Part shown: positions 61,001-64,000 of the stretch, piece after piece
How positions within the stretch are numbered: position 1 is the stretch's first letter
Layout of the letters: every line of letters begins with the position of its first letter
Assembly (NCBI RefSeq): GCF_988243305.1
Contig: NZ_OZ547136.1
Strand: one strand, 5' to 3'
Length of the DNA stretch: 64,000 nt
Program-made: the position numbers

Positions 61001-64000
61001 AGAGTGTTGCTCAGGATATTGTCGGCTTTAGTCTGAGGTGAGGTGGGGCCTTCATTGTTTTCGTGTTCAATAAATAATTTAGGTTAATTAGTATTATTAG
61101 TGGAAGTTATGTGATCTGTTATGTTGTCTTGTACGCACTTAACACTGGTTACGTACCGGAACACTATTAGAGTATGTTATGGCTCTGTTACAGTTTATAG
61201 GTATGAAAAAATATAATCTTTCCTGTATGAAATAATATTCTTATGGTGTGTGGGGTATGGTCTGTATACCATCATTTTTATGGTGAAGTTAAATATCTGT
61301 AGAGGCCTTAAGCTGGGTCGCTGTTTTTACTTAATGGTACAGAAGTATTAATAGCGGTGTTGCCTGTGGCTACCCGATACTGGCTTTTGTGAATGTCAGA
61401 TTACTTCCTGTAAGTGATTGAATGGTACTTCCTTAAACTCAATTCTATGAGGTGTGTTTTTACCATTGTAATTCGTACTGGTCCTCAGTTTAAGTGAGTC
61501 TTACTGTACTCTGAAATATTACCTCTTTGGAGTAATGAGGTAATACGAAACAGTTTTATCAGGTTGTCTGTGCTGCTGGTTACCTCGTTTATTAATGCCG
61601 CGGTACGGCGTTTCTGTACTCTCAGTATTTATGTAATTCCACCTTCCTGTAACTTTTATAAAGTAAGGACTATAAAATGTATAATGCTAATCCCAATTAC
61701 GAAATGGACTTCATGATTCTGAAAGACGTGAATGAACACATGGAAGGTCTGTTTCAACGTTTTTCTAAACTGTTACCTTTCAGAATTGATTTTGCCTACA
61801 GGAAAGACACGCCCAGTTTTGGTCATTCCTGTAGGCACAGTATGTGTATTGAAATGCACCGCTTACTTAGTGAAACCCAAACGATGCTGGCGGGATATTA
61901 CTGGGTAATGGAATATACGTCAAACAAGGGACTTCATATTCATTTTATCGGCTACTTGGATGGGCAACGTCACAAGAAATTTTATCGGATATCCAGGCAA
62001 CTGGGAGATATCTGGAGTCGGATCACGGAAGGGGAGGGTTATTTTCACCTGTGCAGTACTAAAGACAAATACTCGGTGCGTATCGATCACGTGATTCACT
62101 ATAGTGATAAGTCTGCGGTAGACGGTTTACGTTACGCCCTTAGCTACCTGGCTAAACAGGATCAGAAAGAACACGGTATTATTCTGGGCCGTAGCAGGCT
62201 TCCCGAAAAAAGCAACCGGGGCCGACCACGACATAACTGAATTACAGTTGTATTAGGTATTAAAATTAAGTTTCTGTAAGTTGTTGGGAGGTGCTTGAGT
62301 TAATAGGCAGAAGAGGGCGGGGCGCTTTGTCATCAGTGTAGGGGACCCGAATTTCTGCCGTGGTACCTCAGTGGATCGGATACAGGTAACGAATATGGTT
62401 CATAAATCTGACAGTGATGAATTAGCTGCACTGAGGGCAAACATAACTTGAAGCTTATGGGATTGAATGGCGACGTAAACCGCAGAGTCCTGTGCAGTGC
62501 GTTTCCGTATTATCCACGGATGAGAAAGTTGCGTTATTTTGTCGACTGTTTCGCGGGCGTGATGATGTATGGGCCCTTCGATGGGAAAGCAAAACCAGCG
62601 GCAAATCAGGGTACTTGCGGGCCTGTGCTAACGAATGGCAGCCGGGAATAGCGGTAAACTCCGGATAAAATGTGGGGACTGCGCTCACCGTCAGTTGATC
62701 CCTGTATCTGATCTCATCATCTACCACTACACGGTTTAACGGGGCCGCGTCATCTCGGCGTTGCCCGATAAATTCTTTTCTACGTATAATAACCAGAATG
62801 AACGTGTAAAACACCATAGTATTCAGAACTATAAACATCGAAACCTGCCATATTGACCAGAATAAATGACCTTATTTTTACTGAAATTTAAGGAGAACAC
62901 CGTTGGAAGTAGAAATGTGGGATGGTGGCTTACAAGAACAGGAAGTATTGGCTATCGAGAAAATAAAAGCTGCTTTTTCAGTCAACGTATCTAAGCCTGA
63001 CAAGCCTTTCCGTAGCGGTTCAATTAGTGAGCAGCTAAAAAGCTATGGTTTTATCGGCAATGAAATGTTCCCTTGGAAAGGTTATGCAGGTTTTCGATTT
63101 GTTGAGGCAAAAAAAGAGGGGGAATTCGATTTAGTTATTGTAACACACTGCAACGTGATCATTGTTGAACTGAAAGACTGGAACCATCAGCCTGTAACCG
63201 CACGCGGAGATACTTGGTTTAAAGGCGATAAGAACATGGGGCGCTCGCCAGTAAGCGTGACTCGTAGCAAAAAATTCATGCTGGACAAAAAACTCAAGCG
63301 TCTGGTAGACCGTTTTACGAACAAAGGCTATATCCCGATTGTTCATTTTTTTGTTGTGATGACCGGCAATGCAGATTTCAGCGCGCTGCCGGAGGAACAA
63401 CGGCGCCATACGATCTCGTTAAAAGATTTCCTGAAGTTTGCCGATCGCGGGAGCTTCAATAACTATTTCAAACCGCACCCAGCTACCAAGGTTCTTAACA
63501 AGGATTTCCATCTTTTCGATGATTTGTTCCTAGGGCCTCAGACGGCACCAAAAGCCTTGAGAGTTAATGGCTATGAAGCTAATGATATGATTTTCGAACA
63601 TCCTAAAAAGGTGTATCGAGAATATCTGGCAAAATCTGAGATATCAACGAACAGCGAAGCGCTACTCAGAGTATGGAATTTTAGAAATATAACGGGAACG
63701 AAAGCGAATACCCCGGAAGGACGAGCTCAGATTGTTTCACGTGAGCGCGAAGTGTTACAGCACATCAATCACCAGAATCGTGACCTGTATAACCACTGTC
63801 TCAGGTCTTTGACGAGTTTTCAGAAAGACGAGGTGACGGCCGAGTATAGCGAAGTCTACGAAGTTCCGCCGGGTCATGTCCGGTTTAATGAGTTTATCGG
63901 AAAATATGGTAAGAACTTTTCTGATATGGACCGCTTGAATGTGGTGAAACTGCTCATTGCAAAGTTTAGTGATCTCCATGAGATGAAAATTGCGCACAGG

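What the first reader, a model, noticed from the sequence alone, without database searches (positions are those of the whole stretch)
62903..64000. NERD-domain protein at the window edge, possibly the nuclease end of a larger defence protein
A plus-strand frame stays open for 366 codons to the end of the window and is not in the ORF track. Its N-terminus has a NERD/PD-(D/E)xK-like block (EFDLVIVTHCNVIIVELKDW). In CP4-57-type islands the gene after yfjJ is a large helicase-type anti-phage protein, so this may be the N-terminal nuclease module of a nuclease-helicase.
Basis: partly seen in the sequence, partly recalled or inferred. Interest (0 to 1): 0.6.

Follow-up and report, generated by a model that had tools for sequence, protein, structure and literature searches.

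The report
Start of known Mokosh defence gene
The open frame at the window edge is the first 366 codons of mkoA, the large nuclease-kinase-helicase gene of a type I Mokosh anti-phage system that has already been tested experimentally in a near-identical E. coli allele, so it is real but already known.

Summary
A + strand frame runs from TTG 62903 to base 64000 with no stop, and it encodes a NERD (PD-(D/E)xK) domain with an intact, invariant D72/E85/K87 triad.

E. coli genomes 100% identical over this stretch show the complete gene. It encodes a 1652-aa protein: NERD, pseudokinase, kinase, then an Upf1-like SF1 helicase. A 478-aa partner gene follows with a 4-nt overlap. PADLOC matches the two proteins end to end as MkoA (2206 bits) and MkoB (503 bits). 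The window fragment alone scores 471 bits.

The locus is an allele of construct SG199, "Mokosh type I, E. coli SEC470", for which Millman et al. 2022 recorded defence. Protein lengths are the same, with 92% identity over the window part of MkoA and 98% for MkoB.

Three small additions:
- The true start is probably TTG 62903, not RefSeq's ATG 62915.
- This MkoB has a PLD fold but no HKD motif.
- A NERD-bearing MkoA and an HKD-less MkoB go together in all six loci examined, so NERD may be the working nuclease here. This is inferred, not shown.

Novelty: already known. Interest is low.

The parts
62761..62790 (+). Promoter-like site TTGCCC-18 nt-TATAAT upstream of mkoA
   Evidence: Consensus scan, 10 of 12 matches. 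About 1.4 such sites are expected by chance in this stretch, so this is weak on its own. It lies inside the native upstream DNA carried by the defence-positive SG199 construct, whose insert aligns from window 62631.
62890..62895 (+). Shine-Dalgarno AAGGAG
   Evidence: Read directly from the sequence. It is 7 nt before TTG 62903 and 19 nt before ATG 62915. The same sequence is present in the SEC470 allele.
62903..64000 (+). 5' part of mkoA (366 of about 1656 codons), cut by the window end. The probable start is TTG 62903; RefSeq annotates ATG 62915.
   Evidence: Open frame. Identical to the first 362 aa of WP_001333439.1. PADLOC MkoA E 1.9e-141. Homolog N-termini support the upstream start.
63071..63319 (+). 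NERD (PD-(D/E)xK) nuclease domain. Catalytic triad: D72 (63128-63130), E85 (63167-63169), K87 (63173-63175).
   Evidence: Pfam PF08378, residues 53-135, i-E 8.4e-7. The triad is invariant in 31 homologs and in full-length orthologs from Cupriavidus and Vibrio. The AlphaFold model has pLDDT around 90 over this region.
63542..64000 (+). First part of kinase-fold domain 1, a probable pseudokinase (residues about 210-460). The window ends on H361-R362 of its HRD motif.
   Evidence: Foldseek matches the model to Aurora A, phosphorylase kinase and PknB (probability 1.0, about 250 columns). Pfam Pkinase is weak. HRD is invariant, but the catalytic-loop Asn is missing, SNF/SGF replaces DFG, and there is no conserved beta3 Lys. 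The same NERD-pseudokinase-kinase arrangement is described for PglW and DndF (PMC12839542).
62395..62730 (+). Decayed remnant of a primase-like gene upstream. It is not part of Mokosh and marks the boundary of the cargo slot.
   Evidence: RefSeq labels the equivalent stretch in L001 as a frameshifted, partial 'TOTE conflict system archaeo-eukaryotic primase' pseudogene. The window translation contains many stops.

Best explanation
The frame is the 5' end of mkoA, the large subunit gene of a two-gene type I Mokosh anti-phage system (mkoA-mkoB). The system is carried as cargo in a horizontally acquired integrase/alpA/yfjI/yfjJ-type island.

The complete protein has four parts: a NERD PD-(D/E)xK nuclease domain, a pseudokinase, an apparently active Ser/Thr-type kinase, and a C-terminal Upf1-like SF1 helicase. 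Only the NERD domain and half of the pseudokinase lie in the window. The partner MkoB, outside the window, is a winged-helix protein with a PLD-fold domain that lacks the HKD catalytic motif.

Shown:
- the identity of the gene and its domain architecture;
- conservation of the catalytic residues;
- defence activity recorded for a near-identical allele.

Inferred mechanism: the helicase engages phage nucleic acid and uses ATP. The NERD domain supplies the nuclease activity that the PLD supplies in other Mokosh systems. The kinase pair regulates the complex or acts as a co-effector. MkoB acts as a non-catalytic nucleic-acid-binding partner.

My confidence is about 0.97 for identity and about 0.45 for NERD being the working nuclease.
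For: - **Identity.** The 1151-nt query is 100% identical to at least 20 complete E. coli genomes and is present in 352 of 5426. In strain 503025 the frame is a 1652-aa CDS followed by a 478-aa CDS overlapping by 4 nt. PADLOC gives MkoA PDLC03921 at 2206 bits covering residues 1-1648, and MkoB PDLC03923 at 503 bits covering 3-472. The window fragment alone gives E 1.9e-141.
- **Tested allele.** Millman et al. preprint Table S2 lists construct SG199, 'Mokosh type I', observed defence 'v', from E. coli SEC470, with MkoA 1652 aa 'Kinase-Helicase' and MkoB 478 aa 'HTH'. The insert aligns from window 62631 at 95% nucleotide identity. MkoA is 92% identical over the window part and MkoB 98%.
- **Domains.** NERD, Pkinase twice, AAA_11 and AAA_12. 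The helicase is closest to Upf1/NAM7 (E 7e-30), DNA2, IGHMBP2 and Sen1. Residues 210-460 have a kinase fold.
- **Conserved motifs.** D72/E85/K87, HRD 361-363, K537, HGD 631-633, N638, D652/D655, Walker A 1090-1097 and DEAA 1345-1348 are all conserved in orthologs at 63-66% identity.
- **Co-variation.** HKD-less MkoB sits beside a NERD-bearing MkoA of about 1655 aa in E. coli, Cupriavidus and Vibrio. HKD-bearing MkoB sits beside a NERD-less MkoA in E. coli H10407, P. aeruginosa and B. cepacia.
- **Literature.** Helicase ATP-site mutations abolish Mokosh defence. NERD is listed as a type I Mokosh domain (PMC10952713). T-even phages need DNA glucosylation and Alt ADP-ribosylation to evade a type I Mokosh.
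Against: - The window ends at codon 366, so intactness in the source genome cannot be verified. A few E. coli genomes carry copies truncated by IS elements or frameshifts (H40, H47, H48, H58-H60).
- No experiment has tested the NERD residues.
- MkoB keeps an invariant His (H422) and conserved acidic residues in the PLD-fold domain, so a non-canonical active site cannot be excluded.
- The MkoB model is poor for residues 1-35 and 105-232.
- The NERD/HKD complementarity rests on six loci.
- The HIDEN-SEQ Mokosh (DefenseFinder 'Type_I_A') may be a different subtype from this one.
- Millman et al. hypothesise RNA or RNA/DNA sensing, which is not obviously consistent with a DNA endonuclease effector.
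Confidence: 0.9

Rival explanations
1. Same gene and system, but the NERD domain is not the main effector. MkoB's PLD-fold domain would still be a nuclease with a non-canonical active site. [quoted passage not shown]
For: MkoB keeps the PLD fold. H422, E400 and E408 are invariant in 36 homologs. PMC12839542 interprets the PglW NERD as a backup effector. Millman et al. report that PLD active-site mutations abolish Mokosh defence, although the system mutated is not stated.
Against: The catalytic Lys and Asp of HxK(x)4D are absent from 35 of 36 family members. Zucchini K171A, a mutant of the corresponding Lys, appears among the fold-search hits; that it is catalytically inactive is my own knowledge and was not checked here (entry 4gem). 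Profile-profile comparison finds no homology between the C-terminal domains of the two MkoB families. The NERD triad is invariant, which argues for catalysis.
Confidence: 0.25
2. In the genome the window comes from, the gene is a truncated or disrupted pseudogene, leaving a NERD-only remnant rather than a working Mokosh system.
For: Some E. coli records carry only 21-65% of the query or a shorter CDS labelled 'nuclease-related domain-containing protein' or 'NERD domain-containing protein kinase family protein'. One of them abuts an IS3 transposase.
Against: 332 of 353 matching records cover at least 80% of the query. Nearly all of the 60 records actually listed annotate a full-length 'AAA domain-containing protein' there. 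The window fragment has no stop or frameshift and is identical to the intact reference protein over 362 aa.
Confidence: 0.06
3. The fragment belongs to a PglW-like (type 2 BREX), MAD6-like (MADS) or Nhi-like nuclease-helicase protein rather than to Mokosh.
For: Residues 53-456 align with NCBIfam PglW (84 bits) and MAD6 (109 bits), and with PADLOC PglW. The NERD plus SF1 helicase architecture resembles Nhi-like proteins (PMC10952713).
Against: Both scores are far below the curated cut-offs of 990 and 460 bits. The C-terminus is an Upf1-like helicase rather than wHTH repeats plus an inactive STAND domain. No BREX or MADS genes lie nearby. No Nhi model is hit by the window fragment, and none appears among the best 25 of 48 PADLOC hits to the full protein, while MkoA matches end to end.
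Confidence: 0.01

Closest known systems
Mokosh type I of E. coli SEC470 (construct SG199; Millman et al. 2022, preprint 10.1101/2022.05.11.491447)
   Same: Same two-gene operon and the same protein lengths (1652 and 478 aa). The upstream region and Shine-Dalgarno/start context are the same. MkoA is 92% identical over the window part and MkoB 98% over 399 aa. Defence was observed for that construct.
   Different: There is allelic divergence behind the NERD core: residues 100-200 are only 80% identical. The chromosomal context of SEC470 was not examined.
Mokosh type I of E. coli ETEC H10407 (SG202) and its relatives
   Same: A kinase-like domain plus an Upf1-like helicase in MkoA. MkoB has a related N-terminal region including a winged helix (PADLOC PDLC03922, E 1.2e-13 over residues 12-248). 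The operon has two genes.
   Different: H10407 MkoA is 1215 aa and has no NERD domain. Its MkoB is 602 aa with two invariant HKD motifs. Here MkoA has a NERD domain and an extra pseudokinase, and MkoB has a PLD fold without HKD.
[quoted passage not shown]
   Same: The N-terminal arrangement is NERD-REase, then inactive pseudokinase, then active S/T/Y kinase. Sequence similarity is detectable over residues 53-456.
   Different: The C-terminal half here is an SF1 helicase instead of wHTH repeats plus an inactive STAND domain. There are no BREX or Dnd partner genes. Scores are far below the family cut-offs.
Nhi / Nhi-like nuclease-helicase immunity proteins
   Same: One polypeptide joins a NERD-type nuclease to an SF1 helicase, and it has an anti-phage role.
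   Different: Nhi proteins have no kinase modules and no MkoB-type partner. No Nhi HMM is hit by the window fragment, and none is among the best 25 PADLOC hits to the full protein.
AbpAB (yfjL/yfjK) of K-12 prophage CP4-57
   Same: It occupies the same cargo slot after yfjJ in an int-alpA-yfjI-yfjJ backbone, and it is a helicase-containing defence pair.
   Different: It is an unrelated system with an SF2 helicase, it lies on the opposite strand, and its island is at ssrA. This island sits at efeB-phoH.
Eukaryotic Upf1 / MOV10L1 helicases and the Zucchini (PLD6) nuclease of the piRNA pathway
   Same: The helicase core is closest to Upf1 among solved structures. MkoB's C-terminal fold matches Zucchini and Nuc. 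A Mokosh-piRNA parallel has been proposed (10.1101/2022.12.12.520048).
   Different: The PLD-fold domain here lacks the HKD motif, and a NERD nuclease and kinases are added. The parallel therefore fits the H10407 type and type II Mokosh better than it fits this subtype.

Membership tests
Mokosh type I (MkoA + MkoB) | End-to-end match of the large protein to an MkoA family model | tested here: met
   PADLOC PDLC03921, 2206 bits, residues 1-1648 against profile positions 5-1603 of 1607. The window fragment alone gives 471 bits, E 1.9e-141.
Mokosh type I (MkoA + MkoB) | COG1112/Upf1-like SF1 helicase domain in MkoA with intact ATP-binding motifs | tested here: met
   AAA_11 (6.3e-38) and AAA_12 (4.4e-42). 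Upf1/NAM7 are the best PDB matches. GPPGTGKT at 1090 and DEAA at 1345 are conserved. This was seen only in the complete gene from genomes identical over the fragment, because it lies beyond the window end.
Mokosh type I (MkoA + MkoB) | Ser/Thr kinase domain on the helicase protein | tested here: met
   Pfam Pkinase at 577-657 (8.5e-6) and weakly at 270-447. Residues 210-460 have a kinase fold. In domain 2, HGD, N638 and D652/D655 are conserved.
Mokosh type I (MkoA + MkoB) | Adjacent mkoB gene in the same operon | tested here: met
   In L001 a 478-aa CDS overlaps mkoA by 4 nt and matches PADLOC MkoB PDLC03923 at 503 bits. The same pairing occurs in Cupriavidus and Vibrio. It cannot be seen within the window.
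Mokosh type I (MkoA + MkoB) | PLD-family nuclease with an HxK(x)4D active site in MkoB | tested here: inconclusive
   The PLD fold is present, but the HKD motif is absent from this protein and from 35 of 36 homologs, and Pfam finds no PLD domain. The defence-positive SEC470 founder member has the same feature and is labelled 'HTH' in Table S2. This therefore does not exclude membership.
Mokosh type I (MkoA + MkoB) | Protection against phage when expressed | not testable with these tools
   Defence was recorded for the SEC470 allele, which is 92-98% identical. It was not tested for this allele.
BREX type 2 PglW | NCBIfam equivalog NF033442 at or above the 990-bit cut-off, with a wHTH-plus-inactive-STAND C-terminal half and BREX neighbour genes | tested here: not met
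   84 bits, over residues 53-437 only. The C-terminus is an SF1 helicase. The neighbours are island genes and mkoB.
MADS MAD6 kinase | NCBIfam equivalog NF047741 at or above the 460-bit cut-off | tested here: not met
   109 bits.
Nhi / Nhi-like | Match to Nhi family models; a single-gene nuclease-helicase without kinase modules | tested here: not met
   No Nhi model is hit by the window fragment at E <= 0.001, and none is among the best 25 of 48 PADLOC hits to the full protein. Two kinase-fold domains are present.
NERD domain (Pfam PF08378; PD-(D/E)xK clan) | Profile match plus a D...(D/E)xK catalytic triad | tested here: met
   i-E 8.4e-7 over residues 53-135. D72, E85 and K87 are invariant. 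Nuclease activity itself was not tested.

The most novel reading that the evidence does not exclude
Within the Mokosh family the effector may have been swapped. In the SEC470-type subtype, to which this window belongs, the NERD domain fused to MkoA would be the only catalytically competent nuclease. MkoB's PLD domain would survive as a catalytically dead nucleic-acid-binding or regulatory module, comparable to TrmB or the FAM83 pseudo-PLDs. If so, the 'helicase plus PLD, piRNA-like' description of Mokosh would not apply to this widespread subtype.
Probability: 0.45. Interest if true: 0.4.

Novelty: already known. Interest (0 to 1): 0.18.

Why it matters
For the genome scan, this settles an unlisted edge ORF. 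It is the start of a named, experimentally supported anti-phage system found in about 6.5% of complete E. coli genomes, so it is not a new defence protein.

Three by-products may be useful:
- RefSeq probably starts the gene four codons too late.
- The mkoB partner in this subtype has a PLD fold without the catalytic motif.
- NERD-on-MkoA and HKD-on-MkoB were mutually exclusive in the six loci examined. This gives a cheap, testable hypothesis about which domain kills the phage in this subtype. I found no mechanistic study of type I Mokosh, and one group reports failing to purify it.

Tried and rejected
- **Profile-profile comparison of the two MkoB families (A2 vs A3).** Only the N-terminal 126 residues aligned, at 7.6% probability. 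Sequence therefore cannot show that the C-terminal domain is a decayed PLD, and the fold-level claim rests.
- **Searches on MkoB.** The PDB sequence search and Pfam gave nothing usable.
- **Solved Mokosh structure.** None was found by sequence.
- **Published Millman paper.** The Cell Host & Microbe version is not held. I therefore could not read which phages SG199 blocks or which Mokosh system carried the PLD and helicase mutations. The figures are images.
- **tRNA attachment site.** A search of 50000-64000 found none, and Rfam found only Ysr251.
- **PglW, MAD6 and Nhi membership.** Considered and rejected on cut-offs, C-terminal architecture and neighbours.
- **DefenseFinder subtype.** I could not determine whether label 'Type_I_A' corresponds to this subtype, so the HIDEN-SEQ counter-defence data are only suggestive here.
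- **Full-length homologs.** The protein search with residues 1-460 returned mostly contig-truncated fragments rather than full-length proteins. Full-length orthologs were obtained instead through MkoB neighbourhoods.
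Full report
**1. Observation**

The + strand frame from 62903 to 64000 translates into 366 codons without a stop. The nearest upstream in-frame stop is TGA 62882-62884. The ORF lister omits the frame only because it runs off the end of the window. At about 44% GC I estimate the chance of such an open run at about 1e-9 (my arithmetic).

It lies inside a Pfam NERD match covering residues 53-135 (i-E 8.4e-7).

**2. Completing the gene**

The 1151 bases 62850-64000 are 100% identical to at least 20 complete E. coli chromosomes. They occur in 352 of 5426 complete genomes, and 331 genomes hold at least 80% of the query.

In strain 503025 (locus L001) the frame is a 4959-nt CDS, WP_001333439.1, annotated "AAA domain-containing protein". 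A 1437-nt CDS follows and overlaps it by 4 nt. The window's 362 residues are identical to that protein.

A few genomes carry copies cut by IS elements or frameshifts. Intactness in the window's own genome is therefore likely but unverified.

**3. Identity**

PADLOC matches the large protein end to end to MkoA: PDLC03921, 2206 bits, residues 1-1648. It matches the second protein to MkoB: PDLC03923, 503 bits. The window fragment alone scores 471 bits, E 1.9e-141.

Table S2 of Millman et al. (preprint 10.1101/2022.05.11.491447) lists construct SG199, "Mokosh type I", with observed defence marked "v", from E. coli SEC470. Its MkoA is 1652 aa ("Kinase-Helicase") and its MkoB is 478 aa ("HTH"). Comparison with this window gives:
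- The insert's first 396 nt align to window 62631-63025 at 95% identity.
- MkoA is 92% identical over the window part.
- MkoB is 98% identical over 399 aa.

The locus is thus an allele of a system for which anti-phage defence was observed. NERD is already listed as a type I Mokosh domain in a review table (PMC10952713).

**4. Anatomy of MkoA**

Pfam and the fold search give the following order:

| Region (aa) | Domain | Evidence |
|---|---|---|
| 53-135 | NERD | Pfam PF08378 |
| about 210-460 | kinase fold 1 | Foldseek probability 1.0 to Aurora A, phosphorylase kinase, PknB; model pLDDT 84 |
| 577-657 | kinase 2 | Pfam Pkinase |
| 1068-1612 | SF1 helicase | AAA_11 and AAA_12 |

The helicase is closest to Upf1/NAM7, DNA2, IGHMBP2 and Sen1 among solved structures.

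In 31 N-terminal homologs down to 43% identity, D72, E85 and K87 are invariant. Kinase domain 1 keeps HRD (361-363). However, it has H-S where the catalytic-loop Asn should be, SNF/SGF in place of DFG, and no conserved beta3 Lys. I read it as a pseudokinase.

Kinase domain 2 keeps K537, HGD 631-633, N638 and D652/D655. These are conserved in full-length orthologs from Cupriavidus and Vibrio (63-66% identity), as are Walker A and DEAA.

This "NERD-REase, pseudokinase, active kinase" arrangement is the one described for PglW and for some DndF proteins (PMC12839542). That explains the sub-threshold NCBIfam hits to PglW and MAD6. The window holds the NERD domain and the first 150 or so residues of the pseudokinase, and it ends on H361-R362.

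**5. Start codon**

RefSeq starts the gene at ATG 62915. AAGGAG at 62890-62895 is 7 nt from TTG 62903 and 19 nt from the ATG. Almost all homologs begin M/L-[ED]-[IV]-x-x-W-[DEG]-G-G-L, which is four residues upstream of the RefSeq start. The PADLOC profile aligns RefSeq residue 1 to profile position 5.

A promoter-like TTGCCC-18-TATAAT lies at 62761-62790, inside the native upstream DNA carried by SG199.

**6. The partner MkoB, and what the NERD domain probably does**

The text of Millman et al. defines Mokosh by an RNA helicase plus a PLD nuclease. This MkoB has no Pfam PLD hit and no HxK anywhere in the protein. Across the two families the contrast is sharp: 35 of 36 homologs of this MkoB lack HxK(x)4[DE], whereas 29 of 30 H10407-type MkoB carry two.

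So MkoB here is a winged helix plus a PLD fold without the catalytic motif. It does keep an invariant H422 and conserved acidic residues.

Gene neighbourhoods show a complementary pattern:
- HKD-less MkoB follows a NERD-bearing MkoA of about 1655 aa in E. coli, Cupriavidus and V. cholerae.
- HKD-bearing MkoB follows a NERD-less MkoA of 1150-1230 aa in E. coli H10407, P. aeruginosa and B. cepacia.

From this I infer that the NERD domain in the window supplies the nuclease activity in this subtype. I give that a probability of about 0.45, because it rests on six loci and no mutational data. The main rival is that MkoB retains a non-canonical activity and NERD is a backup effector, as has been proposed for PglW.

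**7. Other mechanistic information**

- Mutations in the helicase ATP site abolish Mokosh defence.
- A type I Mokosh from a uropathogenic strain is evaded by T-even phages only if they glucosylate their DNA and carry the Alt ADP-ribosyltransferase (10.1101/2025.11.20.689424). This fits DNA being sensed or cut, but the subtype of that system relative to this one is unknown.
- One group could not purify type I Mokosh (10.1101/2025.07.10.664194).
- No solved structure matches by sequence.

**8. Context**

The island runs from the integrase at 54130 to beyond the window end. Its GC content is 32-47%, against 50-54% in the core genes further upstream, efeO/efeB. It contains, in order:
- the integrase;
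- an unannotatable 605-aa ORF;
- an IS1 remnant;
- an AlpA-like regulator;
- a YfjI-family protein;
- an inovirus Gp2/YfjJ-like protein;
- a decayed primase fragment;
- mkoA.

It sits beside efeB-phoH, not ssrA. In K-12 CP4-57 the slot after yfjJ holds abpB/abpA.

**9. Verdict**

The novelty class is "already known", and interest is low (0.18). The only open and mildly novel element is the possible NERD-for-PLD effector swap.

Noticed in passing
window 55519-57336 (-): An intact 605-aa ORF in the most AT-rich part of the island (32-38% GC). It has no hit in Pfam, NCBIfam, PADLOC or PHROGs. The same gene is split by an IS2 in the reference strain. It is an uncharacterised cargo gene next to the integrase.
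   Followed up: partly
window 62903-62917: RefSeq annotates the mkoA start at ATG 62915. The Shine-Dalgarno spacing and the N-termini of about 28 homologs indicate TTG 62903, which adds four residues (MEVE).
   Followed up: yes
window about 63212-63514 (MkoA residues 100-200): This stretch is only 80% identical to the SEC470 allele, while residues 200-400 are 98-99% identical and MkoB is 98%. The substitutions cluster at residues 134-137, 162-166 and 179-194, behind the NERD core. This could reflect recombination or diversifying selection.
   Followed up: partly
window 62395-62730 (+): A decayed fragment with many stops. RefSeq labels the equivalent stretch a 'TOTE conflict system archaeo-eukaryotic primase' pseudogene. 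It lies directly upstream of mkoA and may be the remains of an earlier cargo or of the island's replication module.
   Followed up: partly
window 52237-52430 (-): A full-length Rfam match to Ysr251 (Yersinia sRNA 251, antisense type) at 192.8 bits against a gathering score of 100. It lies opposite the 3' end of phoH, outside the island.
   Followed up: no
L001 20021-21457 (just beyond the window end): MkoB of this subtype has a winged helix plus a PLD-fold domain that lacks the HKD motif in 35 of 36 homologs. The family exceeds 500 clusters, has no Pfam domain, and is annotated 'hypothetical protein' throughout.
   Followed up: yes
L004 3415-4185 (P. aeruginosa): A separate 256-aa gene with NERD and Zn_ribbon_Top1 domains lies directly upstream of a NERD-less MkoA and a PLD-bearing MkoB. 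It may be a free-standing counterpart of the fused NERD domain, or an unrelated neighbour.
   Followed up: no
L003 3023-9434 (V. cholerae): An orthologous NERD-type Mokosh pair sits next to TraF/TraH/TraG genes. The system therefore also travels on conjugative elements, not only on integrase islands.
   Followed up: no
window 53691-53969: A repeat of roughly 96 nt lies just upstream of the integrase. Window 53874-53969 matches two places in L001, where RefSeq annotates two 'RtT sRNA' copies. ARAGORN found no tRNA in 50000-64000, so the attachment site of the island is unclear.
   Followed up: partly
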